Origin: Jejuia sp. UBA6058
GTDB lineage: Bacteria; Bacteroidota; Bacteroidia; Flavobacteriales; Flavobacteriaceae
Length of the DNA stretch: 64,000 bases
Assembly (NCBI GenBank): GCA_002428965.1
Contig: DIYI01000011.1
Coordinates: 11,848 to 75,847 of the forward strand
Direction: 5' to 3'
Part shown: positions 35,205-57,382 of the stretch, piece by piece
How the letters are laid out: each line of letters opens with the position of its first letter
Numbering within the stretch: position 1 is the stretch's first letter
The notes under the pieces: generated by a model
The model's input: only the letters and a program-made list of their open reading frames with translations
Database searches by the model: none
Told to the model about the DNA's origin: nothing
Translations under genes and position numbers: made by a program

Positions 35205-37163
35205 TTACTTCACAATAACTTTAGTCAACATCGTCAAATAATGGCCAGGGAACGTACAAACTATCCAATATTCTCCAGATTCGCTTGGAGATGTGAAATA
35301 GATAGTTTCGTTACTTTCAGGACCTACAGTGCCAGTATGCGCCAGAACCAAATCACTAAAGGGCACATAGTTTAAATCGGGGCCATCAAGACCTAATCCT
35401 AGAGCATCTTGTCCTACTTTTAGAGCTACTTCTTTTCCGGGTTGGCTAGTGAGAACAACGTTGTGAATCATGTCGTCATTGTTGTTCAACGTTAATTCAA
35501 TTTTGCTATTTCTATTAATTGTAATTTCTTGAAGATCGTATTTTAATCCAGGAACAGTTCCAATCACTACTTTTTCATCAGCTCCTGCTTCTCCCCACGC
35601 ACTTGGGATAACGTTTACGCGTTTTGGTTGTTCCACTTTTGATTCTGAGGAAGTCGTTGCCATTTGCATAGATTTAAGTTCACCATCAGGCACTTCATTC
35701 AAAGTATAGTACGCTTTTTTATGCAAGAGCTTTTCACCTGTAGTTGCTGTTAGAGACGGAAGTTCCAATTGATGGATATACCCCAATCGCATACCATGAA
35801 TAGTCAATTTTACGGTAAAGCCATCATCCGAAACTTCAGCTTTATGAATCATCGCATTTTGCTGATCAATAATAGGGCTACCATAGGTTTTATGGTATTT
35901 ATAGTTAAACGTTACCATCTTATAGTTTGAAATATCTTCGGCTTGGGCTTTGTTTATGGGTTTAGTGAATTCCAATTCAAAACCATCATCTTTGGCTTTC
36001 ATGGTTTTAATTTCAAAAGGTGTTTTTCCTGTCCAAACCAAACGTTGTAAACCAAATTCATCAGTACCTGTAGATGTCCAACCTCTGCTCGTCATACCAA
36101 CAAACATACTGTTGTCACTTCCCCAAATCATTCTTAATATTCCAGATGAAAACCCCTCAACAAATGGGAACGCGACACCTTGATATACGCCATTTACCTT
36201 TTCCATATAAACGCGCATAATTTTACTATGTCCTTGGTCGCCTATAAACTGTTGGCCTTCGAATGGGCCAAATTTACCTCCAGTAGTATCATATAAAATA
36301 TCAGACGTAGAAATACCTAAAATAGTATGAGGAAACCAAATAGCAGGAGCCTTTAATTCTTTTTCTTTTTTAGCATACTCGTATAATGTTAACCCTGAAT
36401 TATCTTCAATATCTTCGGGTTTTAAAGTAAGAGGAGACTTTGGATCATCACTCCATTTTAAACCTGATGGATGACCTGCAAAATCTCCAGGTTCTAAGTG
36501 GGTCATTCTACCCGAACCTACCCAATCGCCTTGATTTTCAGTATAGAAGTAATCTCCTTCATTGTTAATTCCAAATCCTGCAGGTGAGCGCAAACCTGTT
36601 GCAATCGGTGTCATTTCTCCTTCTGGAGTTATCTTTAACATCCATCCACGCCATCGCACAGGGCTCTGTCCACCATTTATCCACGCCAAGTTCAACGTTA
36701 CTATCATATCACCATTTGTAGTGAATTTTGGTCCATACGAGTAACCATGATAATTACCTGATAGAGGCCAAGAATAAATGGTGTTATAAACATCAGCTTC
36801 ATCATCATCATTTTTGTCCTCTAAACGCGTTAATTCTCCGCGTTGAGCTAGATAGAAACTCCCATCTCTATAAGCCAACCCAAGAGCCTCATGTAAGCCA
36901 TGAGCAAACAATTTGTAATTTGGAGTACTGCTATATGGATCGTCTATTAGCCAAACTTCCCCTCGACGTGTGGAAACGCCCAATTTATCATCCTCTGTTA
37001 AGGCTAAACCACCTACTTCTAAAGTAACATCATCTGGAATAGGAACATCTACTATTTTATAATATTCAGCTTCTTTTTCTTGAATAGTTTTAGATTGACC
37101 AAAAGCAATTTGACCAATACATAAGCATAAAATAACATACGAGATTTTTAATACGTTTTGCAT
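35205..37163 (-). CDS. Beta-propeller (sorbosone/glucose dehydrogenase-like) fused to a C-terminal auracyanin/azurin-type cupredoxin
   Basis: Signal peptide; propeller motifs AHGLHEALGL, ATGLRSPAGF, ENQGDW; Cu ligands MIHNVV and CTFPGHYLTM; no CxxCH motif. Confidence 0.8.
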   Translation of the reverse strand: MQNVLKISYVILCLCIGQIAFGQSKTIQEKEAEYYKIVDVPIPDDVTLEVGGLALTEDDKLGVSTRRGEVWLIDDPYSSTPNYKLFAHGLHEALGLAYRDGSFYLAQRGELTRLEDKNDDDEADVYNTIYSWPLSGNYHGYSYGPKFTTNGDMIVTLNLAWINGGQSPVRWRGWMLKITPEGEMTPIATGLRSPAGFGINNEGDYFYTENQGDWVGSGRMTHLEPGDFAGHPSGLKWSDDPKSPLTLKPEDIEDNSGLTLYEYAKKEKELKAPAIWFPHTILGISTSDILYDTTGGKFGPFEGQQFIGDQGHSKIMRVYMEKVNGVYQGVAFPFVEGFSSGILRMIWGSDNSMFVGMTSRGWTSTGTDEFGLQRLVWTGKTPFEIKTMKAKDDGFELEFTKPINKAQAEDISNYKMVTFNYKYHKTYGSPIIDQQNAMIHKAEVSDDGFTVKLTIHGMRLGYIHQLELPSLTATTGEKLLHKKAYYTLNEVPDGELKSMQMATTSSESKVEQPKRVNVIPSAWGEAGADEKVVIGTVPGLKYDLQEITINRNSKIELTLNNNDDMIHNVVLTSQPGKEVALKVGQDALGLGLDGPDLNYVPFSDLVLAHTGTVGPESNETIYFTSPSESGEYWIVCTFPGHYLTMLTKVIVK

Positions 37164-37179
37164 GATTAATTAGTTTTAG

Positions 37180-39123
37180 TTACCAGATAATACTATAGTT
37201 AATACTACTGTTTCCTTCGGGAATTTTAACCAATAATTCCATTTTGTCGTTAATATTTCTTATTTCAGGTTTTAAATTATTTCCTGAAAAATCGATATAA
37301 TAACTTTCGTTATTGATAACATATACATTATCTGGTAGAACTTTTATGCTGTCACCATCGGCAATTTTGTGCCATAAATTTCTTGCTTTAGAAATTGTAA
37401 CAGATTTTTTTAATTGGCGCGTACCCTCTGGAACCGAAAACTTATTGGTGATAACAGTGGGTCCGATTTTATATGAGAATGCCGGCATTCTAGAATTATC
37501 TAATTCATACCCCAATTGTTTGAAACCTTCATTTTCTGGGAGAGGTACGGGCCATGGGGTGTTCACTGTCTCTAAAGGAGCAAACTCTAAATCTCCGTGC
37601 ATTGAAATTGCTAAACCTATTGGTTCTCCAGATTGTTTAAAACCTCTTGATAGCCACATATGGGTTGTATTCAAAAAAGAGCCACTCCAAACTTTTAATA
37701 AAGACCCTGTTGCCAAATTATAAGAGTAATGCACGCCTTGAGGGGAGCCTACCGAAATACAATGTGTGTACTTTTCGTCTTTATGGTGCACAAAACTACG
37801 TTGCATTATTGGTTTGTCTTTAGGTTCTACAATAATACCTTTTAGGGGGTCAAAGTCTCCTACATTTTTTGAAACACCTTCAAATAATGAATAACGCTGC
37901 ATTTCTGGTCCTTCCACAAATAAATTGCACCCTCTGGACCAAGGCGCATGCTGGTTGTACACTACCGTAAAAGGAATATTCCCTTTTTCTAAGGTAATTT
38001 TGTTAAAACCAAATTGATCTCTACTATTATTAAAACGAAATACTTTTTTGTCATTTAAATAGAACTCTGCGATGCCTGTAGTTTGACTAGAAAAAAGATA
38101 GTCTCCAGATTTAGGAATGGATAGTATGCCTGAAAAGGCAACCATTTTTCTTTCTCTTTTGCTGGTTATATCATTTAAGGACAAAGTATTTACTTTTTCT
38201 TCCTTAACCTTGACAATTGTATCTAGGCTCCCTATTGTTTTGCCAGGACTTTCATATTCCGTTCTAACTAGATTGGTAACACCAATTTTTTTGTCGTCAT
38301 AAAGTTTGTATCTGATATTTTTAAATGCAACTGGTCCATGATCACCTTGAATCATTAAAGGTCCTGTAGCTCGTTCATCAGCATTGGTGCCTCCTCCACG
38401 AGTTGGGCCACTCAAATCCACATTTTCATGAATTAAAAACCCGTTTAACCAAACCTTTTCAAACCATGCATTTTTAATTTTTTTACCAGTATTATTGAAC
38501 TTTGGAGCATGAAAAATAACTTTTAAATGTTGCCATAGCCCAGGAGCCTTGGCAGCGTTAACTCTAGGGGAATAACCTTCATAACCCTCCTCTCCTTTTG
38601 GCGCTTCCTTATTCCAACGTTGATAAATACCACCCATATCTGCGTATTTGGGGTTTTCTACATTCCAGCTATCAAAGATTTGTACTTCGTAACGACTTTG
38701 GAAGTACAGACCAGAATTGGATCCTACAGGAATCATGACATCTAACTCCAATTCTATATCGCCATGTTCAAAAGGTGTAAATAAATTTTTATTCTTACCT
38801 TTTTCTTGATCGTTTTTATTTAAAAGAATACCCGTTCCTTCGGCGGCGGTAATTGTCTTTTTAGCATTTCTGTCTGTAATTACCTCACCAACAATTTTCC
38901 AGTTTGCTCCTGCTGGTTGAAAACTAGTTAGATTATTTAGCTCTATTTTTGTGAAAGGTAAATAATCTTTTGGGCTATTGGTGTTTTCTTTTTTTGTTGG
39001 AGCTTGAGTAAAAATTACCTCTTCCTCCTTTTTACATGATGAAAAAAAAGTAAAACAAATTGAGATAAATACAAAAAATAAATATCTCATCCTTTGTATT
39101 TTAATTAGGTTGTGCTTTTTCAT
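37180..39123 (-). CDS. Lipoprotein with DUF1080 (3-keto-disaccharide hydrolase) domain, PA14-like domain and C-terminal domain
   Basis: Lipobox FSSC; GSNSGLYFQSRYEVQIFDS, PGLWQHLKVIF, LMIQGDHGPVAFKNIRYK; PA14-like FSGILSIPKSGDYLF. Alternative start at 39090. Confidence 0.82.
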   Translation of the reverse strand: MKKHNLIKIQRMRYLFFVFISICFTFFSSCKKEEEVIFTQAPTKKENTNSPKDYLPFTKIELNNLTSFQPAGANWKIVGEVITDRNAKKTITAAEGTGILLNKNDQEKGKNKNLFTPFEHGDIELELDVMIPVGSNSGLYFQSRYEVQIFDSWNVENPKYADMGGIYQRWNKEAPKGEEGYEGYSPRVNAAKAPGLWQHLKVIFHAPKFNNTGKKIKNAWFEKVWLNGFLIHENVDLSGPTRGGGTNADERATGPLMIQGDHGPVAFKNIRYKLYDDKKIGVTNLVRTEYESPGKTIGSLDTIVKVKEEKVNTLSLNDITSKRERKMVAFSGILSIPKSGDYLFSSQTTGIAEFYLNDKKVFRFNNSRDQFGFNKITLEKGNIPFTVVYNQHAPWSRGCNLFVEGPEMQRYSLFEGVSKNVGDFDPLKGIIVEPKDKPIMQRSFVHHKDEKYTHCISVGSPQGVHYSYNLATGSLLKVWSGSFLNTTHMWLSRGFKQSGEPIGLAISMHGDLEFAPLETVNTPWPVPLPENEGFKQLGYELDNSRMPAFSYKIGPTVITNKFSVPEGTRQLKKSVTISKARNLWHKIADGDSIKVLPDNVYVINNESYYIDFSGNNLKPEIRNINDKMELLVKIPEGNSSINYSIIW

Positions 39124-39346
39124 GATCTTTTTTTAGTACTCTTTAGGCAAATATCCTCAAAAAACCTTCGTTATAAAGTATCTATCAATAAGGTGCAGAT
39201 TTACTTAAAGTATAGTGAAAAATTACTAATTCGAGTTGTTGGTGTTGTCTTAAAGCTCTGTAAAAATGTATAAATTTAAGGTAAGAGATGTGCATAATTA
39301 TTCACTGAAATATATTATACATGTTGCTCTTCTAAGATATTATAGA

Positions 39347-40714
39347 CTACTCTTCAAAAATATGTTTAAGAATAATTTGTTGTACTTCTGTTGCGTTAAT
39401 TACATTATTTTGATGATTTTTTGATTGCACTAAAATTGGGTAATAGTCTTCTTCGATATTCACTGTGCCATGCGATCCTTTAATTAGTGATGCATCTAAA
39501 GGAATTACATCCATCATGGTTCGAAAACCAAGTTTCTTTTTTATTAGCTTCATCATGATGCGAAGTTTTATCATCGTTTTCTTGGGGTCGGTAAACATTT
39601 CTACAGGATCGTAACCTGGTTTTTTGTGTATATCCACATTTCTAGCAAAATCTGGGGCCTTTTTATCGTCTAACCAATAATAATATGTAAACCAGAAATC
39701 TTTATCCGCAACTAGTACCAAATCTCCAGAGCGTTCATGATTTATATGATGTTTTTCTTGTTCTTTCTTATCAAGAGTTAGCTCTATTTCAGGAAATGAT
39801 TGCAAAAGTTTTTTAATTTCAGACACATCATTTTTATCATCAATATACACATGGGCAATTTGATGATCGGACATGGCAAATGCTTTACTTATACCTGTGT
39901 CTAGAAGTTCTAAACCATTTTCCTCCCTAATTTTAATGTAGTTATATTTTCGTAAAACTCTGTTAATATGGAAAGGTGCTTTTACGGGATTTATACCATA
40001 CTCTGATAGTAAAATAATCTTAACATTTTGAGATTCGTAAAATTCAATTAAGTCTTTACAAACAACATCTAACTCCTCAAGATTTTCTAATATAGTTTTT
40101 TCATCATTTGTTTTTTGAAGTACATAATCTAAATGGGGTAGATAAATGAGTTGTAAAGTTGGACTGTGCCAATTATGGACTAATTTTGAAGCATCTGCAA
40201 TCCATTTAGTGGATTTTATTGTTGTATTTGGTCCCCAAAAATTAAACAAAGGAAATGTACCTAATTTCTGTTGTAATCTATCTCTTAAGTCCTCTGGTTT
40301 CGAATAGCAGTCTGGTTTTTTTTGTCCGTCAGATCTATATTGAGGACGAGGTGTTACATTGAAATCTGAATTAGAGTACATATTATACCACCAAAACATA
40401 TTGGAACAGGTGAAATTAGGATTTTTTTCTTTGGCAATATCCCAAATTTTAGGACCCTCCACTAAATGATTAGATTGTCTCCAAAGCTTTACTTCACATT
40501 CATCTTTGAAGTACCAGCCGTTGGCAACAATACCATGTTCATTAGGCCATTTCCCAGTTAAATATGTTGTTTGAGCTGCACAAGTAACTGCGGGTAAAAC
40601 AGGTTTTATTTTGGAGAGTTTATGTTTTTTAATCCACTTAGTTAAAAATAAATTATCAAATTTCAGCAGATTGCTAGATAAACCTACGATATCAATTACT
40701 ACTGTTTGATGCAT
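39347..40714 (-). CDS. eboF: EboF, nucleotide pyrophosphatase/alkaline phosphatase family
   Basis: VVIDIVGL, nucleophile region PAVTCAAQTTYLTG, IYLPHLDY, LLSEYG, PGYDPVE, KGSHG. ATG at 40714 preferred (ORF track start 40741). Confidence 0.88.
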   Translation of the reverse strand: MHQTVVIDIVGLSSNLLKFDNLFLTKWIKKHKLSKIKPVLPAVTCAAQTTYLTGKWPNEHGIVANGWYFKDECEVKLWRQSNHLVEGPKIWDIAKEKNPNFTCSNMFWWYNMYSNSDFNVTPRPQYRSDGQKKPDCYSKPEDLRDRLQQKLGTFPLFNFWGPNTTIKSTKWIADASKLVHNWHSPTLQLIYLPHLDYVLQKTNDEKTILENLEELDVVCKDLIEFYESQNVKIILLSEYGINPVKAPFHINRVLRKYNYIKIREENGLELLDTGISKAFAMSDHQIAHVYIDDKNDVSEIKKLLQSFPEIELTLDKKEQEKHHINHERSGDLVLVADKDFWFTYYYWLDDKKAPDFARNVDIHKKPGYDPVEMFTDPKKTMIKLRIMMKLIKKKLGFRTMMDVIPLDASLIKGSHGTVNIEEDYYPILVQSKNHQNNVINATEVQQIILKHIFEE

Positions 40715-40721
40715 ACTAAAC

Positions 40722-49352: not shown

Positions 49353-49360
49353 TTTTTAAT

Positions 49361-49975
49361 TTATAAAGGCAAAGCTTTTCCTTTTGTGGTTTCTTTCAAA
49401 GATACAGCCATTATAATCTCTTTGGACAGGATCATAGGCTAAAACCTCTTCTCCTGTTTTTTTAAGATGTGTAAATCCCAATATAGTATAATAAAGGACT
49501 GCCGGAAGAAATTTATATATATGGTAAATATCAGTTTCTTTTTCTGAAACGCTTTTAATGTTTAGTTTTTGTTGATTTATTACTTTTTTATGCTTTTTCG
49601 AAAGATCGAAATCAAAACTGAAAATTAAGTAAAAGTTTTCTTTGTTAATATTAGAAATGGGTTTGTCTTTGCTTTGTATGGTCTTTTTTATGAATGGCTT
49701 AGGGCCTTTTTTAAAAATAGTTTTGTTTAATTCTGTTTCTATATCATTATGCACCATATCAATAAATTGTGAAATGTTTACATTTAGAACTTTATATAAG
49801 TCATACTTAGGTAAAATGATACTCGCTATGGGGATCACAATGTACCTTTCTTCTTTTGAAAGAAATAAAAAAGTACAAGTTTCTATATTATTTGAACAAG
49901 ACGATAACATACTTAAGTATTGTTTGAGTAGTCACCGTAGAGCCAATGCTCATAGTTAGATTTATTGGCTTGGAA
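49361..49975 (-). pseudogene. Frameshifted relic of a second subunit-3 (Tat partner) gene
   Basis: Middle frame FLSKEERYIV..IILPK..LNVNISQFID and GEEVLAYDPV..YNGCI aligns with the 47065..47661 product. N-terminus (NLTMSIG...TIL) and C-terminus (ETTKGKALPL*) are in other frames. No twin-Arg start. Confidence 0.8.
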
Positions 49976-50098
49976 TTAAAGTAAGAATTTGACAAAGATT
50001 TGTATGAATTTTTCTTAAAAGGGTAGAAATTACTAAATATTTTTATAATAAATGGGAAATTAACTATTTTGCATAGGTAACTTGTTTAAATTTTTTCA

Positions 50099-51142: not shown

Positions 51143-51242
51143 GTGTTTAAAATTTTTCACTGAATAAAAACAAACAGGTGTTGTGCTTTAATTGTATAAT
51201 TTCACCTTTACTACATATAAAACAAACTAACTAATACAAAAC

Positions 51243-52226
51243 ATGAAGCGCAGGGACTTTATTGTTAAAACTTCAAAGACAAGTATAGCGCTTTCCGCTT
51301 TGGGAATGTATGCTTGTAAAAATTCAAAGGAAAATAAAATTAGCGCAACTGATGCGGCCGATGTCGAGGAAACTTCTAAAGAACTGTTTTTCAAAATCTC
51401 TTTGGCACAATGGTCTTTGCACAGAGCTTTATTTGATGGAAGTTTGGATAATTTAGACTTTGCCGCTAAATCGAGAAGTTTAGGTTGTGAAGGAGTAGAG
51501 TATGTCAATGGGTTTTTTAAGGACAAGGCAAAAGACATGGTCTATCTTAAAGAAATGAAATTTAGAGCTAATGCTGAAGGACAACAAAACGTACTAATAA
51601 TGATAGATGGTGAAGGTGGTCTTGCTGATGCAGATACTTCCAAAAGACTTGAAGCTATAGAAAATCATTATAAATGGGTGGAAGCAGCACACTTTTTAGG
51701 ATGTCATGCTATTAGAGTGAATTTAGCAGGAGCTAATGATTACGAAGAAGGCATAAAAGCAGGTGTAGATTCATTGGTTAAACTATCTGAATTTGCTAAA
51801 GGCTCTAATATTAATGTTTTAGTTGAAAACCACGGTGGATTTTCTTCAAATGGGGAATGGATGCATCAGGTGTTTTCGCAAATAAAGAATGAAAATTGTG
51901 GTACACTTCCAGATTTTGGAAACTTTTGTATCACCAAAGGAGAGAAGGATGAAAAGGGGATAAGACCCTGCTTGGAAGGATACGATCGTTATAAAGGCAT
52001 GCAAGAATTGTTGCCTTTTGCCAAGGCTGTAAGTGCAAAATCTTATGATTTTGATGCGAATGGAAATGAAACTACTATTGATTATAAACGCGTAATGCAA
52101 ATGGTCAAGGATACTGGATATAATGGTTTTGTAGGCGTGGAATATGAGGGTAGGATATTGCCTGAAGAAGAAGGTATAAAAGCGACTCGTAATTTATTGC
52201 TTAAAGTGAGACAAGAACTTTCGTAA
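51243..52226 (+). CDS. Sugar phosphate isomerase/epimerase (xylose-isomerase-like TIM barrel), Tat lipoprotein
   Basis: MKRRDFIV...MYAC; ISLAQWSLHR, VENHGG, TLPDFGNF, VGVEYEG. Confidence 0.88.
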   Translation: MKRRDFIVKTSKTSIALSALGMYACKNSKENKISATDAADVEETSKELFFKISLAQWSLHRALFDGSLDNLDFAAKSRSLGCEGVEYVNGFFKDKAKDMVYLKEMKFRANAEGQQNVLIMIDGEGGLADADTSKRLEAIENHYKWVEAAHFLGCHAIRVNLAGANDYEEGIKAGVDSLVKLSEFAKGSNINVLVENHGGFSSNGEWMHQVFSQIKNENCGTLPDFGNFCITKGEKDEKGIRPCLEGYDRYKGMQELLPFAKAVSAKSYDFDANGNETTIDYKRVMQMVKDTGYNGFVGVEYEGRILPEEEGIKATRNLLLKVRQELS

Positions 52227-52248: not shown

Positions 52249-53457
52249 ATGGAGAATATTAATAAGAATAGGCTGTTTTTGGCATCCTGTATTTCTTTGA
52301 TTGTAACGGCAATGACTTTTGCTATACGTGCTGGGATTTTGGGGCAACTTGGATCAGATTTTCAATTAACAGATGAAGAATTGGGTTATGTAAATGGGAT
52401 GGCATTTTTAGGGTTTCCGATAGCTACAATCTTTGGAGGCCTTGTTTATAATTCACTCGGAGCACGAAAACTAATGGCAATTGCATTTGTGTCACATCTA
52501 TTAGGATTGTTATTAACCATTTTTGCTGGAGGGTTTTGGACCTTACTGATTTCTACCTTTTTCATCGGATTTGCAAATGGATCTGTTGAAGCCGCATGTA
52601 ATCCACTTATCGCTGATATGTATACAGATAATCGTACCACCATGTTGAACAAATTTCATGTTTGGTTTCCCGGTGGAATTGTAATTGGAGCCTTGGCTTC
52701 TAAATTTATGACTGATTTAGATTTGAGTTGGCAACTACAAATAGGAATTATGCTGATTCCAACTTTATTGTATGGATTTTTATTCTTCGGACAAAAATTC
52801 CCAAAGAGCGAAAATATTGTTTCGGATACCAAGACAAACGCTAAAAGTTTATTAACACCGCTGTTCATTTTTATGGCAATTTGTATGACGCTTACGGCAA
52901 CAACTGAATTAGGCACACAACAATGGGTGGAAAAAATTCTTGGTAATTCAGGTGCGAGTCCAATGTTAATATTAGCGATGGTAACAGGTTTGATGGCTAT
53001 AGGGCGTTACTTTGCAGGCCCAATAATACATAAGCTGAATCCTCCAGGAGTATTGTTTGCTTCGGCAATTATTTCGGCAATTGCTATTTATTTGATGAGT
53101 TCAGCTACTGGGGGAATGGTCTACGTAGCGGCTATTTTATTTGCTGTTGGTGTATGTTATTTCTGGCCAACCATGATTGGTTTTGTTAGTGAATACTTGC
53201 CAAATACAGGAGCTTTAGGGATGTCCTTAATTGGTGGAGTTGGTATGTTTGCTACGAGTATTTGGCAACCTGTTATTGGCTCTTGGTTAGATGGTGCAAA
53301 AGCTACCGCGCTAGAATCTGGAGCATCTGTGGAGCAGGCAGAATTAATTGCAGGACAAGCTACCTTAAGTAATATTGCAATTTTCCCAATGGTACTTGTG
53401 GTACTATTTGGAATTCTTTATACACAACGCAAAAAATTAGAAGCAAATAGAGTATAA
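52249..53457 (+). CDS. MFS transporter
   Basis: About 12 hydrophobic segments; GSVEAACNPLI, FHVWFPGGIVIG, FWPTM. Confidence 0.9.
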   Translation: MENINKNRLFLASCISLIVTAMTFAIRAGILGQLGSDFQLTDEELGYVNGMAFLGFPIATIFGGLVYNSLGARKLMAIAFVSHLLGLLLTIFAGGFWTLLISTFFIGFANGSVEAACNPLIADMYTDNRTTMLNKFHVWFPGGIVIGALASKFMTDLDLSWQLQIGIMLIPTLLYGFLFFGQKFPKSENIVSDTKTNAKSLLTPLFIFMAICMTLTATTELGTQQWVEKILGNSGASPMLILAMVTGLMAIGRYFAGPIIHKLNPPGVLFASAIISAIAIYLMSSATGGMVYVAAILFAVGVCYFWPTMIGFVSEYLPNTGALGMSLIGGVGMFATSIWQPVIGSWLDGAKATALESGASVEQAELIAGQATLSNIAIFPMVLVVLFGILYTQRKKLEANRV

Positions 53458-53462: not shown

Positions 53463-54611
53463 ATGAGTAGAAAATTAAGAATGGGAATGGTTGGCGGTGG
53501 TGCTGGCTCATTTATTGGAGATGTGCATCGAAAAGCAGCGGCCATTGATGGTATGATAGATTTAGTATGTGGTGCATTTAGCAGTACTGCAGAAAAATCT
53601 ATTGCATCAGGTATTGCTTTAAATTTAGATGAAAGCAGATGCTATGGTACTTTTGAGGAAATGGTTGAAAAAGAAAAGCAACTGCCAGAAGATATAAGAA
53701 TGGATTTTGTGGCTATAGTTACGCCAAATCATATGCATTTTCCACCTGCTAAAATGGCTTTAGAAAATGGATTTCATGTGGTTTGTGATAAACCGGTGAC
53801 GTTAACTTTGGAGGAGGCTGAAGCCTTACAAGATGTAGTTGCCAAAAGCGGAAAACTATTTGCACTTACACATAATTACACAGGTAATTCTTTGGTAAAG
53901 CAGGCGAAAGCAATGGTGTCTAAAGGAGAACTTGGGAAAATTCGAAAAATACAAGCCCAATATTTGCAAGGGTGGCTATCTACATCTTTAGAGAAAACCG
54001 ATCAAAAGCAAGCAGCGTGGAGAGTAGATCCGAAACGTTCAGGAATTGGAGGTGCTTTGGGCGATATTGGTACACATGCTGAAAATTTGATTGAATATAT
54101 TACGGGTTTAAAAATTGAAGAAATTGCTGCAGATTTAGGAAGATTTGGAGAAGGACGTATTTTGGATGATGATGGCAATATGTTAATTCGTATGGATAAT
54201 GGGGCAAAAGGGACAATCTCTATTTCACAAATAGCTTTAGGTGAAGAAAATAATTTAGGAATTAGAGTGTATGGTGAAAAAGGTAGTTTGGAGTGGTATC
54301 AAGAAAATCCAAACGAATTGATTACTCGTTGGTTAGAAGAACCCAAAAAAGTGTACACGCCAAATAGTAATGGTCTGCATAAGGAAGCTTTGGAAGTTTC
54401 GAGAATTCCTGCAGGACATCCTGAGGGATATTTAGAGGCTTTTGCTACTATTTATAAAAACTTTGCGCTACATCTTACAGCTGTGAATGAAGGAAAAATT
54501 ATTGAAAAACCAGATTACCCAACAGTGGAAGATGGTGTAAGAGGTATGAAGTTTATCTATGCAGCGGTGGAAAGTGATAAAAACAACGCTGCTTGGACAA
54601 AAATGGATTAA
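53463..54611 (+). CDS. Gfo/Idh/MocA-family NAD-dependent oxidoreductase
   Basis: GMVGGGAGSFIG, IVTPNHMH, CDKP, GDIGTHA, GHPEGYLEAFA. Confidence 0.92.
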   Translation: MSRKLRMGMVGGGAGSFIGDVHRKAAAIDGMIDLVCGAFSSTAEKSIASGIALNLDESRCYGTFEEMVEKEKQLPEDIRMDFVAIVTPNHMHFPPAKMALENGFHVVCDKPVTLTLEEAEALQDVVAKSGKLFALTHNYTGNSLVKQAKAMVSKGELGKIRKIQAQYLQGWLSTSLEKTDQKQAAWRVDPKRSGIGGALGDIGTHAENLIEYITGLKIEEIAADLGRFGEGRILDDDGNMLIRMDNGAKGTISISQIALGEENNLGIRVYGEKGSLEWYQENPNELITRWLEEPKKVYTPNSNGLHKEALEVSRIPAGHPEGYLEAFATIYKNFALHLTAVNEGKIIEKPDYPTVEDGVRGMKFIYAAVESDKNNAAWTKMD

Positions 54612-54808: not shown

Positions 54809-55861
54809 ATGAAAACAATAAAAGGACCAGCAGTGTTTTTGGCTCAATTTGCGGGAAGTGAAGCGCCATTTAACACTTTGGACGGCATGTGCAAATGGGC
54901 AGCCGATTTGGGGTATAAAGGTATTCAGATTCCAACTTGGGAGTCTAGCTTAATGGATATTGAGAAGGCTGCCGACAGTCAGACCTATTGCGACGAATTG
55001 AAGGGAAAGGTAAACTCATACGGATTGGAAATCACTGAATTGTCAACTCATTTACAAGGGCAGTTGGTGGCCGTAAATCCTGCGTACGACACCATGTTTG
55101 ATGGTTTTGCGCCAGAAGAAGTAAGAGGCAATCCCAAAGCAAGAACGGAATGGGCTATTGATTTTGTGAAAAAATGTGGAACAGCGAGTAGACGTTTAGG
55201 ATTGAAATCTCATGCGTCGTTTTCTGGAGCTTTAATGTGGCATACGGTGTATCCTTGGCCTCAGCGCCCCAATGGTTTAGTAGAAATGGGCTTTAAGGAG
55301 TTGGCAAACCGTTGGTTGCCAATTTTGAATCATTTTGATGAGGAAGGTGTAGATGTGTGTTATGAAATTCATCCCGGTGAGGATTTGCATGATGGGATTT
55401 CTTATGAGCGTTTTTTAGAGGCTACGAGCAATCATTCGCGCGCTAATTTGTTATACGACCCGAGTCATTTTGTATTGCAACAGTTGGATTATTTGGACTT
55501 TATAGATATTTATCACGAACGAATTAGGGCTTTTCATGTGAAGGATGCTGAGTTTAATTCAACGGGTAGACAAGGTGTTTATGGTGGTTATGCCGATTGG
55601 AAAGACAGAGCTGGACGTTTTAGAAGTTTAGGTGATGGACAAGTTGATTTTAGTGCGATATTTTCTAAATTGACTAAATACGGATTGGATTTATGGGCTG
55701 TAATGGAATGGGAATGTTGTATTAAATCTTCTGAACAAGGGGCTAGAGAAGGTGCGCCATTTATTCAAAAACACATAATTGAGGCTGCAACTCGTAGTTT
55801 TGACGATTTTGCTGGAGGTGATATTGACGAAGATTATTTAAAAAGTATTTTAGGAGTATAA
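54809..55861 (+). CDS. Sugar phosphate isomerase/epimerase (AP-endonuclease-2/TIM barrel), probable ketoglycoside lyase/hydratase
   Basis: KGPAVFLAQF, LSTHLQGQL, YEIHPGEDLHDG, YDPSHF, FHVKDAEF, RFRSLGDGQVDF, VMEWEC. Confidence 0.88.
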   Translation: MKTIKGPAVFLAQFAGSEAPFNTLDGMCKWAADLGYKGIQIPTWESSLMDIEKAADSQTYCDELKGKVNSYGLEITELSTHLQGQLVAVNPAYDTMFDGFAPEEVRGNPKARTEWAIDFVKKCGTASRRLGLKSHASFSGALMWHTVYPWPQRPNGLVEMGFKELANRWLPILNHFDEEGVDVCYEIHPGEDLHDGISYERFLEATSNHSRANLLYDPSHFVLQQLDYLDFIDIYHERIRAFHVKDAEFNSTGRQGVYGGYADWKDRAGRFRSLGDGQVDFSAIFSKLTKYGLDLWAVMEWECCIKSSEQGAREGAPFIQKHIIEAATRSFDDFAGGDIDEDYLKSILGV

Positions 55862-55862: not shown

Positions 55863-56597
55863 ATGAAGCAATTATTCTGTTTTTGTCTCTTTTTTCTTTT
55901 TAGCATTATGTCTTTTGCTCAAGAAAAAATTGATCCTAAACTTACAGAGGTTTGGGCACCAAAAGTTAAAAAAGTGATTCCAGGTTATAACAATTCGCCA
56001 CCAAGTGATGCGATTGTGTTGTTTGATGGCTCTGGTTTTGATGGTTGGACAGGAAAAGGTGATACAGTTGGTTGGGTTTTGAATGAAGATGGTTCTATGA
56101 CAGTAAAACCAAAAACAGGAGCTATTAAAACGAAACAAACTTTTGGTAGTGTACAGCTGCACTTAGAATGGAAATCTCCACTTGATACTATTGGTAAAAA
56201 AAGTCAAAAACGAGGTAATAGTGGTGTGTTTCTTCAAGACAGATATGAGGTTCAAGTACTTGATAATAACAACAATGAAACGTATTCTAATGGTCAGGTG
56301 GGGTCTGTTTATAAACAGTCTATTCCACTGGCTATGGCTTCAGTTCCAACAGGGGAATGGAACACGTATGATATTATTTTTCATCAGCCAGAATTTGATG
56401 AAAATGGAAAAGTAGTTAAAAAAGCTACTATTACTGTGTTACACAATGGTGTATTGATACAAGATCATTTTGTAATTCAAGGCCCTACAGTTTACAGAGG
56501 TGAACCAAGTTATAAAGCTCATGGTAAAGCTTCTATTCGTTTACAAGACCATGGTGATTTGGTAAGTTATCGCAATATTTGGATTCGAGAAATTTGA
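55863..56597 (+). CDS. DUF1080 (3-keto-disaccharide hydrolase family) protein
   Basis: PPSDAIVLFDG, QLHLEW, GNSGVFLQDRYEVQVLD, GEWNTYDIIF, LQDHGDLVSYRNIWIRE; signal peptide. Confidence 0.92.
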   Translation: MKQLFCFCLFFLFSIMSFAQEKIDPKLTEVWAPKVKKVIPGYNNSPPSDAIVLFDGSGFDGWTGKGDTVGWVLNEDGSMTVKPKTGAIKTKQTFGSVQLHLEWKSPLDTIGKKSQKRGNSGVFLQDRYEVQVLDNNNNETYSNGQVGSVYKQSIPLAMASVPTGEWNTYDIIFHQPEFDENGKVVKKATITVLHNGVLIQDHFVIQGPTVYRGEPSYKAHGKASIRLQDHGDLVSYRNIWIREI

Positions 56598-57382
56598 TAG
56601 TGGTGATATTAAGAATTTCATTCGCTTCTGTAATTTCCGAATTTAATAATGTCAAAAAAGTATTAGTCTTTGGTTTAATCTGTTCTTTCTGTTATTTAAG
56701 CTTTGCTCAGAAAGGAATAGATCCAAAACTCACAGAAGTTTGGGAGCCAAAAGTTCCGAGAGTTATTCCATACAAGAATGCTATCCCCAGTGATGCTATA
56801 ATGTTATTTGATGGTAAGAATTTTGATAATTGGACAGGTGTAAACGGAGAATTGCTCTGGACTTTAAATGACGACGGTTCTATGACAGTAAAACCTAAAA
56901 CGGGCTCCATAAAAACCAAGAAAAGTTTTGGTAGCATTCAATTACATGTAGAATGGAAATCTCCTATTGATACCATTGGTAGAACTGGTCAACAACGTGG
57001 GAATAGTGGGGTGTTCTTGCAGGAGTTGTATAAAATTCAGATTTTGGATAACAATAACAACGAAACCTATTCAAACGGTCAAGTAGGTTCTGTTTATAAG
57101 CAATCTATTCCTTTGGCAATGGCATCATTTCCCACGGGTGAATGGAATACTTACGATATAATTTATTGTCAACCAGAGTTTGATAAAAAAGGTAATGTTG
57201 TAAAAAAAGCCATAATCACCTTACTGCATAATGGTATTTTGGTATTAGATCATTTTGAAATTCAAGGAACTACCGTTTGGAGAGGTCAGCCTTCATATCA
57301 AATTCATGGTAAGGCTCCAATTATGTTACAGGATCATGGGTGCGAGGTGAGTTACCGAAATATTTGGGTTAGAGAGATTTAA
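56579..57382 (+). CDS. DUF1080 protein, tandem paralog with irregular 5' end
   Basis: Near-copy of the upstream gene (IDPKLTEVW, GNSGVFLQ, LQDHG..VSYRNIW). The best-context ATG at 56649 is out of frame, just before A-AAA-AAG. In-frame GTGs at 56600/56603 are alternative starts. Confidence 0.75.
   Translation: MDSRNLIVVILRISFASVISEFNNVKKVLVFGLICSFCYLSFAQKGIDPKLTEVWEPKVPRVIPYKNAIPSDAIMLFDGKNFDNWTGVNGELLWTLNDDGSMTVKPKTGSIKTKKSFGSIQLHVEWKSPIDTIGRTGQQRGNSGVFLQELYKIQILDNNNNETYSNGQVGSVYKQSIPLAMASFPTGEWNTYDIIYCQPEFDKKGNVVKKAIITLLHNGILVLDHFEIQGTTVWRGQPSYQIHGKAPIMLQDHGCEVSYRNIWVREI

What the first reader, a model, noticed from the sequence alone, without database searches (positions are those of the whole stretch)
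35205..57382. Candidate new system: ebo cluster embedded in a 3-ketoglycoside oxidation locus with blue-copper acceptors
Seen: 13 intact genes plus one relic on the minus strand (relic, GMC, Tat partner, DUF1080, TMEM220, eboA-F, DUF1080-PA14, propeller-cupredoxin), mostly with gaps of 26 nt or less (exceptions 66, 120 and ~220 nt). They face an AraC gene and a TIM-MFS-Gfo-TIM-DUF1080-DUF1080 run. No cytochrome c subunit is encoded in the block. Established: GMC plus subunit-3, Gfo/Idh/MocA, TIM-barrel and DUF1080 proteins make up oxidation/elimination routes of glycoside cleavage (e.g. Bacteroides thetaiotaomicron BT2156-2159); eboA-F encode a sugar-phosphate cyclase and prenyltransferase whose product is poorly defined. 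Inference: periplasmic keto-sugar chemistry supplies or is protected by an ebo-made prenylated cyclitol, with cupredoxins replacing cytochrome c as acceptors.
Basis: partly seen in the sequence, partly recalled or inferred. Interest (0 to 1): 0.75.

Follow-up and report, generated by a model that had tools for sequence, protein, structure and literature searches.

The report
Ebo operon nested in sugar-oxidation regulon
A coral-associated flavobacterium carries the ebo genes, which make a prenylated signalling compound of the thallusin type, wedged between recognisable sugar-oxidising genes and copper electron carriers; these are separate modules rather than one new machine, but ebo clusters do sit beside this kind of periplasmic dehydrogenase far more often than chance.

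Summary
The gene map is right: 12 intact minus-strand genes plus one true relic, facing an AraC gene and a TIM-MFS-Gfo-TIM-DUF1080-DUF1080 run, with no haem-c motif anywhere.

The block is a mosaic of three units.
- **Non-hydrolytic 3-keto-glycoside pathway.** TIM2 scores 574 bits against the solved 2-hydroxy-3-keto-glucal hydratase 8RO4. The same divergent locus occurs without ebo in Aureibaculum, Gelidibacter and Flavivirga.
- **TMEM220-eboABCDEF.** A 2026 preprint assigns ebo to thallusin biosynthesis.
- **Conserved gene pair.** A DUF1080-PA14 lipoprotein sits next to a PQQ-dehydrogenase-like propeller fused to a type-1 copper domain. This pair is widespread without ebo; Polaribacter has the same backbone minus ebo and GMC.

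Two results keep some interest:
- A 33-bp palindromic operator precedes AraC, TIM1, the pair and a small cupredoxin. In some genera it also precedes ebo.
- GSDH-type propellers with ThuA and cytochrome c are the commonest immediate ebo neighbours across three Bacteroidota orders: 12/112 versus 0/225 distant genes.

Verdict: known modules, probably co-regulated, with no shared chemistry shown.

The parts
34511..34553 (.). Palindromic operator-like site upstream of the small cupredoxin gene
   Evidence: A PWM built only from other genomes scores 20.7 bits here. Shuffled windows give a mean of 0.6 hits at or above 12 bits. The same position is occupied in L081, L001 and L091.
34610..35128 (+). 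Small lipoprotein cupredoxin (azurin-like), likely soluble or anchored electron carrier
   Evidence: Pfam Copper-bind 67 bits. Lipobox LLFNC and His/Cys/His/Met ligand pattern. Conserved next to the propeller pair in Polaribacter, Tamlana and MHTCC 0001.
35147..35181 (.). Strong bidirectional intrinsic terminator between the convergent cupredoxin and propeller genes
   Evidence: Stem of 15-16 bp with T runs on both strands; inverted repeat I7.
35205..37163 (-). Secreted PQQ-dehydrogenase-like six-bladed propeller, then a beta domain, then a C-terminal type-1 copper (auracyanin-like) domain
   Evidence: Copper-bind and DUF7133 hits. AlphaFold model with pLDDT 82.5. Foldseek top matches are PQQ sugar dehydrogenases 2ism/3a9g/3das (TM-score on target 0.70-0.74) and auracyanin 6kol. 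H567, C636, H641 and M645 are invariant in 30 homologues.
37180..39123 (-). Lipoprotein with a DUF1080 (3-keto-glycoside lyase/hydratase family) domain plus a PA14-like region; always paired with the propeller gene
   Evidence: 3keto-disac_hyd 97.7 bits, PA14 21.8 bits. Lipobox FFSSC. Found directly upstream of the propeller gene in every anchored locus whose upstream DNA is present.
39284..39326 (.). Palindromic operator-like site 21 nt after the eboF stop, upstream of the DUF1080-PA14 / propeller pair
   Evidence: 27.8 bits with a PWM that excludes window sites. The same site and position occur in Seonamhaeicola L084. The equivalent position in Tamlana L001 and Allomuricauda L002 precedes a ThuA-GSDH-cytochrome c gene.
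39347..40741 (-). eboF (alkaline phosphatase / phosphodiesterase family); true start probably 40714
   Evidence: Pfam Phosphodiest 188.8 bits; 53-76% identity to EboF in 76 of 80 loci.
40722..41933 (-). eboE (TIM-barrel 'metabolite traffic protein')
   Evidence: NF035939 495.5 bits, cutoff 250.
41939..43090 (-). [quoted passage not shown]
   Evidence: DHQ_synthase plus DHQS_C; NF004852 541.7 bits. [quoted passage not shown]
43092..43982 (-). eboC (UbiA-type prenyltransferase)
   Evidence: NF035940 323 bits, cutoff 250. Homologues farnesylate hydroxyquinaldic acids (PMC9235831; preprint 10.64898/2026.05.21.724671).
44049..44951 (-). eboB (TatD-like metal hydrolase)
   Evidence: Pfam TatD_DNase 67 bits; 63-81% identity across loci.
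44958..45761 (-). eboA
   Evidence: NF035938 EboA_domain 128.5 bits, cutoff 50. The NF035937 family model scores 172.9 bits, below its cutoff of 320.
45788..46159 (-). TMEM220-family small membrane protein; behaves as a seventh ebo gene
   Evidence: Pfam TMEM220 72.5 bits. It abuts eboA or eboF on the same strand, at most 120 nt away, in 18 loci by HMM, plus L082 and L084 by annotation. It sits at either end of the operon in different lineages.
46280..47053 (-). DUF1080 lipoprotein of the GMC module
   Evidence: 3keto-disac_hyd 131 bits. Follows GMC and the small subunit in ebo-free loci L094-L096.
47065..47661 (-). Tat-signal lipoprotein small subunit (Gluconate_2-dh3), the export partner of the GMC enzyme
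   Evidence: Pfam 68 bits. N-terminus MKRRDALKQIG...LQGC.
47658..49352 (-). GMC flavoprotein dehydrogenase without its own signal peptide; putative glycoside 3-dehydrogenase
   Evidence: GMC_oxred_N and GMC_oxred_C. Closest solved structures are the fructose dehydrogenase and FAD-glucose dehydrogenase large subunits, 115-124 bits. Cys-rich C222-x5-C228-x3-C232 stretch. 74-75% identical to the GMC of ebo-free loci.
49356..49910 (-). Relic small subunit: a paralogue lacking the Tat signal, left over from a lost tandem GMC
   Evidence: Aligns to the intact subunit from residue 26 onward, E = 1e-12. 46% identical to the partner of the 574-aa GMC paralogue in L081; the tandem pair is intact or frameshifted in Flavivirga L096. 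A 34-nt 3' DNA repeat is 88% identical.
50078..50120 (.). Palindromic operator-like site overlapping the AraC start, in the divergent control region
   Evidence: 34.1 bits with a PWM that excludes window sites. Conserved in L081, L082, L096 and L002.
50099..51142 (+). AraC-family regulator (cupin + HTH)
   Evidence: HTH_18 and Cupin_2. 86% identical in Polaribacter and 73-74% in Flagellimonas/Allomuricauda, where it is divergent from TMEM220-ebo.
51139..51181 (.). Palindromic operator-like site upstream of the TIM1 operon
   Evidence: 33.1 bits. The same position is occupied in L081, L091 and L096.
51243..52226 (+). Periplasmic (Tat-lipoprotein) xylose-isomerase-like TIM barrel; candidate 3-keto-glycoside lyase
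   Evidence: AP_endonuc_2 81.6 bits. MKRRDFIV... signal. Weak matches to C-glycoside deglycosidases 7bvs/7dnm.
52249..53457 (+). MFS transporter
   Evidence: MFS_1 96.6 bits.
53463..54611 (+). Cytoplasmic Gfo/Idh/MocA oxidoreductase; candidate 3-keto-sugar reductase
   Evidence: Pfam. 395 bits to 3v5n. No signal peptide. 80% identical in Polaribacter.
54809..55861 (+). Cytoplasmic TIM barrel, close homologue of 2-hydroxy-3-keto-glucal hydratase
   Evidence: 573.7 bits, full length, to PDB 8ro4_A.
55863..56597 (+). Secreted DUF1080 protein
   Evidence: 3keto-disac_hyd 141.9 bits; 210 bits to 4qhz.
56579..57382 (+). Secreted DUF1080 protein (start codon uncertain)
   Evidence: 3keto-disac_hyd 130 bits. 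The N-terminus as called is implausible.

Best explanation
The block is a mosaic of three separately evolving units that lie in one regulatory neighbourhood. It is not one new biochemical system.

**Unit 1: non-hydrolytic 3-keto-glycoside pathway.** It comprises AraC, GMC + Tat small subunit + DUF1080, and the TIM1-MFS-Gfo-TIM2-DUF1080-DUF1080 run.
- A periplasmic flavoprotein oxidises C3 of a glycoside.
- DUF1080 and TIM-barrel lyases/hydratases cleave the product.
- The MFS transporter imports the product.
- The cytoplasmic hydratase (TIM2) and reductase (Gfo) return it to sugar.

**Unit 2: TMEM220-eboABCDEF.** It makes a farnesylated, cyclitol-derived quinoline meroterpenoid of the saccharoquinoline/thallusin type.

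**Unit 3: DUF1080-PA14 lipoprotein plus propeller-cupredoxin.** The propeller resembles PQQ sugar dehydrogenases and is fused to a type-1 copper domain. A separate lipoprotein cupredoxin lies nearby. I infer a periplasmic sugar dehydrogenase that hands electrons to blue copper and on to the respiratory chain.

**How the units relate.**
- Units 1 and 3 and the small cupredoxin share a conserved 33-bp palindromic operator. I infer it belongs to the AraC-family regulator, so they form one regulon.
- Ebo was inserted into this regulon in a small clade of Flavobacteriaceae.
- The ebo link is most likely regulatory: co-expression when the inducing glycoside is present.
- Ebo is not a catalytic participant in keto-sugar chemistry.

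**Shown:** gene identities, fold, copper ligands, synteny statistics, operator conservation.
**Inferred:** substrates, electron path, regulator-operator pairing, co-expression.
For: **Gene identities.** TIM2 matches the 8RO4 hydratase at 574 bits. The Agrobacterium GlycDH/TAT/OGE/HYD/Gfo pathway is described in PMC10628242. DUF1080 proteins act as lyase/hydratase in preprint 10.1101/2024.03.25.586180. Signal peptides place GMC, its partner, TIM1 and the DUF1080s in the periplasm, and Gfo and TIM2 in the cytoplasm.

**Unit 1 exists without ebo.** The same divergent gene order is found in Aureibaculum, Gelidibacter and Flavivirga, and the window GMC is 74-75% identical to theirs.

**Unit 3 exists without ebo.**
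- The pair is conserved at 68-88% identity across many genera.
- It is always paired, and 0 of 8 anchored loci carry ebo.
- Polaribacter reichenbachii has Gfo (80% identical to the window's), MFS and AraC (86%) on one strand, transcribed divergently from TBDR, the DUF1080-PA14 gene (63%) and the propeller gene (82%). Next to those, on the opposite strand, come the small cupredoxin and ilv genes. This is the window's backbone minus ebo and GMC.

**Ebo exists without the other units.** Among 80 ebo loci, GMC is nearby in 1, subunit-3 in 0 and TIM in 0.

**The window arrangement is clade-limited.** It recurs only in MHTCC 0001, Flaviramulus, Seonamhaeicola and partly Tamlana, with variable inserts.

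**Operator.** A PWM built from other genomes finds four strong window sites: AraC start, upstream of TIM1, upstream of the pair, and upstream of the small cupredoxin. It finds none before TMEM220. Shuffles give a mean of 0.6 hits.

**Ebo function.** From.

**Propeller.** Fold and copper site.
Against: - All 13 minus-strand genes are co-directional, and no strong terminator lies in the 120-nt and 223-nt gaps. One long transcript is therefore not excluded.
- The GMC-ebo-pair order has been kept across four or five genera.
- In Seonamhaeicola and Allomuricauda the operator lies directly upstream of TMEM220-ebo.
- GSDH-type propeller genes are strongly enriched right next to ebo in three orders. 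This hints at more than co-regulation.
- No expression data exist. The only run holding this DNA is a coral metagenome.
- The regulator-operator assignment is by position only. A palindrome is not the commonest AraC site type.
Confidence: 0.6

Rival explanations
1. One reading: one integrated system. Periplasmic keto-sugar chemistry (GMC/DUF1080) supplies, or is protected by, the ebo-made prenylated cyclitol. Cupredoxins replace cytochrome c as the acceptor of the GMC enzyme.
For: - Same-strand, tightly spaced genes.
- Arrangement kept in MHTCC 0001, Flaviramulus and Seonamhaeicola.
- No CxxCH protein anywhere in the block.
- The GMC keeps the Cys-rich stretch that in relatives holds the 3Fe-4S cluster feeding an external acceptor.
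Against: - GMC and its partner are absent from 79-80 of 80 ebo loci.
- The GMC next to ebo in MHTCC 0001 and Flaviramulus is a different paralogue (574-aa type, 66-69% identical) from the window's (563-aa type). So even within the clade the 'same' neighbour is not orthologous.
- The GMC locus is complete and conserved without ebo.
- The known GlycDH + TAT enzyme also lacks a cytochrome subunit (PMC10628242).
- The cupredoxin is fused to another dehydrogenase.
- Thallusin-producing Maribacter has ebo with none of these neighbours (L057).
Confidence: 0.1
2. Neutral juxtaposition: ebo landed in a gene-dense sugar-utilisation region by chance and has been kept by inertia in a young clade. It has neither regulatory nor biochemical connection to its neighbours.
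For: - Linkage to GMC is clade-limited.
- There is no operator in the DUF1080-TMEM220 gap of the window or of MHTCC 0001.
- A weak hairpin followed by a T-rich tail lies in that gap (z = -1.8).
- Algibacter has TMEM220-ebo in an unrelated context.
Against: - Immediate ebo neighbours are enriched for GSDH propeller, ThuA and cytochrome c in six genera of three orders, in at least five different gene orders.
- The ThuA-GSDH-cytochrome c gene sits between eboA and eboB in Arenibacter palladensis.
- The operator is directly upstream of TMEM220-ebo in Seonamhaeicola and Allomuricauda.
- The AraC orthologue is divergent from ebo in Flagellimonas/Allomuricauda.
Confidence: 0.18
3. Direct biochemical tie between ebo and periplasmic six-bladed propeller oxidoreductases. 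Either the propeller-haem/copper proteins oxidise an exported ebo intermediate (for example the unexplained saccharoquinoline-to-thallusin step), or the prenylated hydroxyquinoline-carboxylate serves them as a PQQ-like cofactor or membrane redox mediator.
For: - GSDH-type propellers make up 12 of 112 immediate ebo neighbours against 0 of 225 distant ones, p = 1.2e-6.
- Three different architectures recur: ThuA-GSDH-PKD-CytC-CBM6, CytC-PA14-DUF7133, and DUF7133-CytC or -cupredoxin.
- In Nostocales the same position holds NHL/SGL six-bladed propellers of the scytonemin cluster. Klicki et al. tie ebo there to periplasmic steps (PMC6282210).
- The preprint states that the oxidative conversion has no assigned enzyme.
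Against: - Most ebo loci (about 39 of 50 in Bacteroidota) have no such neighbour within one gene.
- The window-type pair is highly conserved in loci without nearby ebo.
- The comparative genomics of the preprint found no further gene shared by all producers.
- PQQ-binding residues were not examined here.
- The gene counts are not phylogenetically independent.
Confidence: 0.12

Closest known systems
ebo (eustigmatophyte-bacterial operon) cluster eboABCDEF, e.g. Maribacter sp. MS6 and Nostoc punctiforme (Yurchenko 2016, PMC5133447; Klicki 2018, PMC6282210; Kallscheuer et al. 2026 preprint 10.64898/2026.05.21.724671)
   Same: All six genes are present, in the Bacteroidota order A-F, intact and co-directional. 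The EboC and EboE equivalog models are passed. Nearest EboE relatives are 72-73% identical.
   Different: A TMEM220 gene is fused to the operon; this is not mentioned in the ebo papers read here. The cluster lies inside an AraC sugar-oxidation regulon, flanked by GMC and propeller-cupredoxin modules, which the thallusin preprint does not report. The product in this organism is untested.
Agrobacterium tumefaciens / Rhizobium sp. GIN611 3-keto-glucoside route: GlycDH (GMC) + TAT-signal protein, O-glycoside beta-eliminase AtOGE, hydratase AtHYD (PDB 8RO4), Gfo reductase (PMC10628242)
   Same: GMC dehydrogenase exported by a Tat-signal partner and without a cytochrome subunit. A very close AtHYD homologue (574 bits). 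A Gfo/Idh/MocA oxidoreductase. TIM-barrel lyase candidates.
   Different: There are extra DUF1080 proteins (four single-domain copies plus one fused to PA14) and an MFS transporter. The genes are split into two divergent operons around an AraC gene. No clear AtOGE orthologue was identified. Substrate unknown.
Bacteroides thetaiotaomicron BT2156-2160 / Alistipes AL1-5 broad-specificity glycoside cleavage cluster (preprint 10.1101/2024.03.25.586180; PMC8121099)
   Same: The logic of oxidation at C3, then elimination and hydration by a TIM-barrel enzyme and a DUF1080 enzyme, then reduction, with periplasmic location of the lyases.
   Different: The oxidant there is a Tat-exported Gfo/Idh/MocA enzyme, not a GMC flavoprotein. 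The window Gfo scores only 35.5 bits (cutoff 750) and 24.8 bits (cutoff 650) on the BT_2158 and BT_2159 family models, so it is not a member.
Heterotrimeric FAD dehydrogenase-cytochrome c complexes (Gluconobacter fructose dehydrogenase 7w2j; Burkholderia FAD-glucose dehydrogenase 6a2u)
   Same: Closest solved large subunits, 115-124 bits over the full length. Tat 'hitch-hiker' small subunit. Cys-rich stretch at the position of the 3Fe-4S ligands.
   Different: No multihaem cytochrome c subunit gene is present. The acceptor is unknown.
Soluble PQQ-dependent sugar dehydrogenases (sGDH/Asd family: 2ism, 3a9g, 3das, 1c9u) and auracyanin/azurin cupredoxins (6kol, 2aan)
   Same: The predicted fold of residues ~35-380 matches these propellers (TM-score on target 0.70-0.74). 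The C-terminal domain matches auracyanin (TM-score 0.87) with a complete His/Cys/His/Met site.
   Different: The two are fused in one secreted 652-aa protein with an extra beta domain. Sequence identity to PQQ enzymes is 12-16%, and only a sub-threshold DUF7133 Pfam hit is found. The cofactor is unknown. Paralogues carry cytochrome c instead of copper.

Membership tests
ebo cluster (eboABCDEF) | EboE TIM-barrel protein passing the equivalog model | tested here: met
   NF035939 495.5 bits, cutoff 250.
ebo cluster (eboABCDEF) | EboC UbiA-like prenyltransferase passing the equivalog model | tested here: met
   NF035940 323 bits, cutoff 250.
ebo cluster (eboABCDEF) | EboA protein | tested here: met
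   EboA_domain NF035938 128.5 bits, cutoff 50. The stricter EboA_family model scores 172.9 bits, below its cutoff of 320.
ebo cluster (eboABCDEF) | DHQS-like cyclase (EboD), TatD-like hydrolase (EboB) and phosphodiesterase (EboF) adjacent and co-directional | tested here: met
   Pfam hits. Gaps are 7 nt or less apart from one of 66 nt. The same order is found in 60 or more loci.
ebo cluster (eboABCDEF) | Production of saccharoquinoline/thallusin or another prenylated cyclitol-derived metabolite | not testable with these tools
   Needs LC-MS on a culture. The source is a coral metagenome.
GMC-type glycoside 3-dehydrogenase (GlycDH + TAT partner) | GMC flavoprotein without a signal peptide, next to a twin-arginine small subunit | tested here: met
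   GMC_oxred_N and GMC_oxred_C plus Gluconate_2-dh3. MKRRDALKQIG signal on the partner only.
GMC-type glycoside 3-dehydrogenase (GlycDH + TAT partner) | C3 regiospecific oxidation of glycosides | not testable with these tools
   Inferred only from the neighbouring DUF1080 and hydratase genes.
Non-hydrolytic 3-keto-glucoside pathway (Agrobacterium type) | 2-hydroxy-3-keto-glucal hydratase (AtHYD) homologue | tested here: met
   573.7 bits, residues 1-349 against 1-348 of 8ro4_A.
Non-hydrolytic 3-keto-glucoside pathway (Agrobacterium type) | O-glycoside beta-eliminase (AtOGE) homologue | tested here: inconclusive
   TIM1 is a periplasmic AP_endonuc_2 barrel. Its best match is the uncharacterised 4ovx. 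Matches to C-glycoside deglycosidases are weak (about 32 bits or less), and 8BVK is not in the list.
BT2156-2159 type cluster | BT_2158 / BT_2159 family Gfo dehydrogenases | tested here: not met
   35.5 bits against cutoff 750 and 24.8 bits against cutoff 650.
FAD dehydrogenase-cytochrome c complexes (FDH / FAD-GDH) | Multihaem cytochrome c subunit | tested here: not met
   No CxxCH motif in any of the 22 proteins of the region.
FAD dehydrogenase-cytochrome c complexes (FDH / FAD-GDH) | Cys cluster for 3Fe-4S in the large subunit | tested here: inconclusive
   C222-x5-C228-x3-C232 is present. Correspondence to the ligands of 6a2u/7w2j was judged from memory of those structures, not from an alignment.
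Type-1 (blue) copper proteins | His, Cys, His, Met ligand set in a cupredoxin fold | tested here: met
   H567, C636, H641 and M645 are invariant in 30 homologues. Auracyanin fold match. The small cupredoxin has the same pattern.
PQQ-dependent soluble sugar dehydrogenases (GSDH) | Six-bladed propeller fold of the sGDH/Asd type | tested here: met
   Foldseek E = 2.7e-12 to 1e-9, TM-score on target 0.70-0.74, on a model with pLDDT 82.5.
PQQ-dependent soluble sugar dehydrogenases (GSDH) | Sequence membership (Pfam GSDH) and PQQ/Ca-binding residues | tested here: not met
   No GSDH hit. Only DUF7133 at 23.1 bits, below its cutoff of 27. Cofactor residues were not examined.

The most novel reading that the evidence does not exclude
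Ebo clusters are functionally tied to periplasmic six-bladed propeller oxidoreductases that carry haem-c or blue-copper domains. Two versions are possible. In one, these enzymes carry out the missing oxidative maturation of the exported ebo meroterpenoid (saccharoquinoline to thallusin, by analogy with ScyD/E/F in scytonemin synthesis). In the other, the prenylated hydroxyquinoline-carboxylate acts as a PQQ-like cofactor or membrane redox mediator for them. The window's propeller-cupredoxin pair would then be a copper-using version of a recurrent ebo accessory module.
Probability: 0.15. Interest if true: 0.8.

Novelty: new variant of a known kind. Interest (0 to 1): 0.45.

Why it matters
The native role of the widely distributed ebo cluster is still debated: scytonemin precursor export, nematode repellence, and now thallusin. 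The oxidative last step to thallusin has no assigned enzyme.

- **Separating the modules.** The GMC/3-keto-glycoside genes are an independent, known pathway. This removes a tempting but wrong coupling.
- **TMEM220 as a seventh ebo gene.** It abuts the operon consistently, at either end.
- **A shared operator.** It ties the sugar-oxidation genes, the cupredoxins and, in some genera, ebo to one AraC-type regulator.
- **Enrichment of propeller dehydrogenases.** GSDH/ThuA/cytochrome-c genes are strongly enriched immediately next to ebo.

The last three give concrete candidates and conditions for experiments on how and when marine Flavobacteriaceae make this cross-kingdom signal. One example is induction by an algal or coral glycoside.

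Tried and rejected
- **Sigma-70 promoter scan.** It found fewer sites than in shuffles (56 against 69.8), so it is uninformative.
- **Strict Bacteroidetes promoter consensus** (TTTG-N17-23-TAnnTTTG). It gave 4 hits against 6.2 expected, none in the gaps.
- **Metagenome scan anchored on the propeller gene.** It returned only 6 loci, so I used genome look-ups instead.
- **TonB-receptor control family for neighbour enrichment.** My single-seed HMM missed obvious SusC-like genes. I replaced it with a near-versus-far Pfam census.
- **Expression data.** The only run holding this DNA is a coral metagenome with no RNA.
- **Structured RNA in the gaps.** Rfam found nothing in the block. The 197-nt Gfo-TIM2 gap and the 223-nt eboF gap fold no better than shuffles. 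The 120-nt gap has only a weak hairpin.
- **The 248-aa ORF at 33739-34485 as ThuA.** ThuA lies beside the propeller gene in relatives, but this ORF has no Pfam hit.
- **Hidden small gene in the 223-nt gap.** Only chance ORFs of 36-53 aa were found.
- **BT2156-2159 as the closest known system.** I rejected it in favour of the Agrobacterium GlycDH/HYD route.

Full report
**1. Observation**

ORF listing and Pfam/NCBIfam scans confirm the gene map.
- On the minus strand, from 35205 to 49910, lie these genes in order: a 652-aa propeller + Copper-bind protein; a 647-aa DUF1080 + PA14 protein; eboF, E, D, C, B, A; TMEM220; DUF1080; a Gluconate_2-dh3 small subunit; GMC; and a 184-aa weak small-subunit ORF.
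- NCBIfam support: EboE 495 bits, cutoff 250. EboC 323 bits, cutoff 250.
- On the plus strand lie AraC, TIM, MFS, Gfo, TIM, DUF1080 and DUF1080.
- No protein in the region has a CxxCH motif.
- GATATTTG is at 39155-39148.
- The count is 12 intact genes plus one relic.
- The organism is an unnamed Flavobacteriaceae. The nearest EboE is 72-73% identical. The only public run holding this DNA is a coral metagenome.

**2. What is known about ebo now**

- A 2022 paper shows EboC homologues of marine Flavobacteria farnesylating hydroxyquinoline-carboxylates (PMC9235831).
- A May 2026 preprint links ebo genes to the algal morphogen thallusin through comparative genomics, isotope labelling and deletions. 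The oxidative saccharoquinoline-to-thallusin step remains unassigned (10.64898/2026.05.21.724671).
- That preprint mentions none of GMC, DUF1080, cupredoxin, PQQ, cytochrome or ThuA.

**3. The flanks are a known pathway**

- TIM2 (54809-55861) matches the solved 2-hydroxy-3-keto-glucal hydratase 8RO4 over its full length at 574 bits.
- Gfo matches 3v5n at 395 bits.
- The GMC is closest to the large subunits of fructose dehydrogenase and FAD-glucose dehydrogenase. It has a C-x5-C-x3-C stretch.
- Its partner carries the twin-arginine lipoprotein signal, and the GMC itself has no signal.
- TIM1 is a Tat-lipoprotein and the DUF1080s are secreted. Gfo and TIM2 are cytoplasmic.
- This matches the Agrobacterium/Rhizobium GlycDH + TAT, eliminase, hydratase, Gfo route (PMC10628242). 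It also matches the lyase/hydratase role shown for DUF1080 proteins (preprint 10.1101/2024.03.25.586180).
- The BT_2158 and BT_2159 family models are far below cutoff. The Bacteroides cluster is therefore an analogue, not the family.

**4. Synteny test from the ebo side**

An EboE alignment retrieved 80 loci with ±10 kb of flank from species-representative genomes. They comprise 19 Flavobacteriales, 20 Cytophagales, 13 Chitinophagales, 22 cyanobacteria and 6 others.

Searching them with the 20 window proteins gave these counts:

| Window gene | Loci with a homologue (of 80) |
|---|---|
| eboA-F | 63-80 |
| TMEM220 | 11-14 |
| GMC | 1 (9 kb away) |
| small subunit | 0 |
| TIM1 / TIM2 | 0 |
| AraC | 2 |
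| propeller | 5 |
| DUF1080-PA14 | 4 |

**5. Close relatives**

Look-ups of the nearest EboE proteins and of Tamlana show the following.
- MHTCC 0001 has the window's layout.
- Flaviramulus has AraC facing GMC, small subunit, DUF1080, Tat-Gfo, TMEM220 and ebo, but lacks the pair.
- Seonamhaeicola and Tamlana have small subunit/DUF1080, FGE-sulfatase, Gfo, TIM, Tat-Gfo, TMEM220 and ebo. The pair is downstream in Seonamhaeicola and inverted in Tamlana.
- Algibacter has TMEM220-ebo in an unrelated context.
- The GMC next to ebo in MHTCC 0001 and Flaviramulus is the 574-aa paralogue (66-69% identical). The window's is the 563-aa type, 74-75% identical to ebo-free loci.
- Flavivirga keeps both GMC genes in tandem.
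- The window 'relic' is 46% identical to the partner of the 574-aa type and lacks the signal peptide. It is therefore a genuine remnant of differential loss.

**6. Reciprocal tests**

- GMC-anchored loci in Aureibaculum, Gelidibacter and Flavivirga show the same divergent arrangement without ebo. One arm is TIM-MFS-Gfo-TIM-DUF1080(-DUF1080); the other is GMC, small subunit, DUF1080.
- The propeller protein is very conserved, at 68-88% identity across Polaribacter, Zobellia, Maribacter, Cellulophaga and others.
- In 8 anchored loci it is always preceded by the DUF1080-PA14 gene wherever upstream DNA exists, and ebo is never nearby.
- In Polaribacter reichenbachii, Gfo (80% identical to the window's), MFS and AraC (86%) lie on one strand. 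They are transcribed divergently from TBDR, DUF1080-PA14 (63%) and the propeller gene (82%).
- Beyond the propeller gene, on the opposite strand, come the small cupredoxin, threonine dehydratase and the ilv genes. This is the window's backbone with a TonB receptor where the window has GMC and ebo.

**7. The pair**

- The AlphaFold model (pLDDT 82.5) matches PQQ-dependent soluble sugar dehydrogenases (TM-score on target 0.70-0.74). Its last domain matches auracyanin.
- The copper ligands H567, C636, H641 and M645 are invariant.
- Paralogues next to ebo in Tamlana and Autumnicola end in a cytochrome c domain instead.
- 'Copper replaces haem c' therefore holds within this protein family, but not demonstrably for the GMC enzyme.
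- A separate lipoprotein cupredoxin lies at 34610-35128.

**8. Regulation**

- A repeat search flagged TTCAGTGAA-containing matches in three gaps.
- The core occurs six times in the window, four of them intergenic around the block.
- Relatives carry it at equivalent places, as part of a palindrome TGTTTA-N6-TTCAGTGAA-N6-TAAACA.
- A matrix built only from other genomes finds five places in the 64-kb window scoring at least 12 bits. Shuffled windows give a mean of 0.6.

| Window site | Position relative to genes | Score (bits) |
|---|---|---|
| 50078-50120 | AraC start, divergent region | 34 |
| 51139-51181 | before TIM1 | 33 |
| 39284-39326 | 21 nt after the eboF stop, before the pair | 28 |
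| 34511-34553 | before the small cupredoxin | 21 |
| 19285-19327 | weak site, before an unrelated gene | 17 |

- The DUF1080-TMEM220 gap scores -0.2.
- Elsewhere the site precedes TBDR and the pair in Polaribacter, and the small cupredoxin in three genomes.
- It precedes the ThuA-GSDH-cytochrome c gene just after eboF in Tamlana and Allomuricauda.
- It precedes TMEM220-ebo itself in Seonamhaeicola and Allomuricauda.
- I infer one AraC-type regulon covering the keto-glycoside genes, the pair and the cupredoxin. Ebo lies inside it, and in the window ebo is controlled directly only if transcription reads through.
- No strong terminator lies within the block. The only strong one is at 35147-35181.

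**9. What does recur next to ebo**

- TMEM220 abuts eboA or eboF on the same strand in 18 loci by HMM, plus two by annotation. It sits at opposite ends of the operon in different lineages.
- A ~1,100-aa ThuA-GSDH-PKD-cytochrome c-CBM6 protein lies beside ebo in Tamlana, Flagellimonas, Allomuricauda, Arenibacter and Chitinophaga. In A. palladensis it lies between eboA and eboB.
- In Dyadobacter a 400-aa GSDH protein follows eboF.
- I took a Pfam census of 112 immediate neighbours from 50 Bacteroidota loci. It ranks GSDH (10), Cytochrom_C (10), ThuA (8), PKD (8) and Gfo (6) first.
- Among 148 genes at rank 4 or beyond, none of these families is in the top 25.
- With my own HMMs, GSDH-type propellers are 12 of 112 near genes and 0 of 225 far genes, Fisher p = 1.2e-6.
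- DUF1080 is not enriched at rank 1, and GMC not at all.
- The counts are not phylogenetically independent. They do span six genera, three orders and at least five gene orders.
- In Nostocales the corresponding neighbours are NHL/SGL six-bladed propellers of the scytonemin cluster.

**10. Conclusion**

- The finding is a correct description of a real, tidy locus.
- It is not a new system. It is a known 3-keto-glycoside pathway, a known ebo operon (with TMEM220), and a widespread uncharacterised propeller-cupredoxin pair, brought together in a few related genera.
- The best-supported link among them is shared regulation.
- A biochemical link between ebo and propeller-type periplasmic oxidoreductases remains possible. 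It is the part worth testing.

**Limits**

- The 80 loci are the best-scoring of more than 595 hits, so they are biased towards Bacteroidota and Nostocales.
- Backgrounds come from far flanks, not whole genomes.
- No expression or biochemical data were available.

Noticed in passing
window 45788-46159; loci L001-L003, L011, L018, L021, L025, L029, L031, L032, L049, L056, L057, L074, L078, L079, L081-L084: A TMEM220-family small membrane protein directly abuts the ebo operon on the same strand. It lies before eboA in the window's clade and some Chitinophagales/Sphingobacteriales, and after eboF in Maribacter, Arenibacter and Croceitalea. It behaves as an unreported seventh ebo gene.
   Followed up: partly
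window 50078-50120, 51139-51181, 39284-39326, 34511-34553 (weak: 19285-19327); L081, L082, L084, L001, L002, L091, L096: A conserved ~33-bp palindrome, TGTTTA-N6-TTCAGTGAA-N6-TAAACA, marks promoters of the AraC gene, the TIM1 operon, the DUF1080-PA14/propeller pair and the small cupredoxin. In other genera it also marks ThuA-GSDH-CytC, a TonB receptor and TMEM220-ebo.
   Followed up: yes
L011 3401-6751; L029 3404-6754; L074 3387-6737; L001 12711-15710; L002 12609-16079; L003 12742-16092; L039, L052, L070 ~1000-4400: A ~1,100-aa lipoprotein with ThuA + GSDH propeller + PKD + cytochrome c + CBM6 lies next to ebo in five Flavobacteriaceae genera and in Chitinophaga. In Arenibacter palladensis it lies between eboA and eboB.
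   Followed up: partly
window 49356-49910 and 47064-47097 / 49360-49393: The relic small subunit and the intact one share an 88%-identical 34-nt stretch at their 3' ends. Relatives show differential loss of a tandem GMC574/GMC563 pair: the window kept the 563 type, MHTCC 0001 and Flaviramulus kept the 574 type, and Flavivirga has both.
   Followed up: yes
window 33739-34485: A 248-aa secreted, Lys/Asn-rich ORF has no Pfam hit. It lies near where relatives have a ThuA gene beside the propeller gene, though theirs is on the opposite strand.
   Followed up: no
window 24433-24513 (-) and 24614-24695 (+): A SAM-II riboswitch (53 bits) lies upstream of metK (23131-24384). A Flavo-1 sRNA (52.7 bits) lies in the divergent gap before the ilv operon.
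   Followed up: no
window 62612-63112: A 166-aa ankyrin-repeat protein follows an arginine-biosynthesis run (57784-62601). This is notable in a genome recovered from a coral metagenome.
   Followed up: no
window 17449-20180: Three tandem paralogous ~280-aa Porph_ging-family genes are followed by a 914-aa CarboxypepD_reg protein. The weak operator-like hit at 19285-19327 lies before the third paralogue.
   Followed up: no
window 40714-40741 and 56579-56660: The TTG starts given by the ORF finder for eboF and for the last DUF1080 gene are probably too far upstream. Homologues align from residue 10 of eboF, and the DUF1080 N-terminus only looks like a signal peptide from about residue 25.
   Followed up: partly
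L044 787-4883; L051 626-3215: In Nostocales ebo loci, the co-directional upstream genes are NHL/SGL six-bladed propellers with PEP-CTERM (scytonemin ScyD/E/F-like). This parallels the propeller neighbours of ebo in Bacteroidota.
   Followed up: partly
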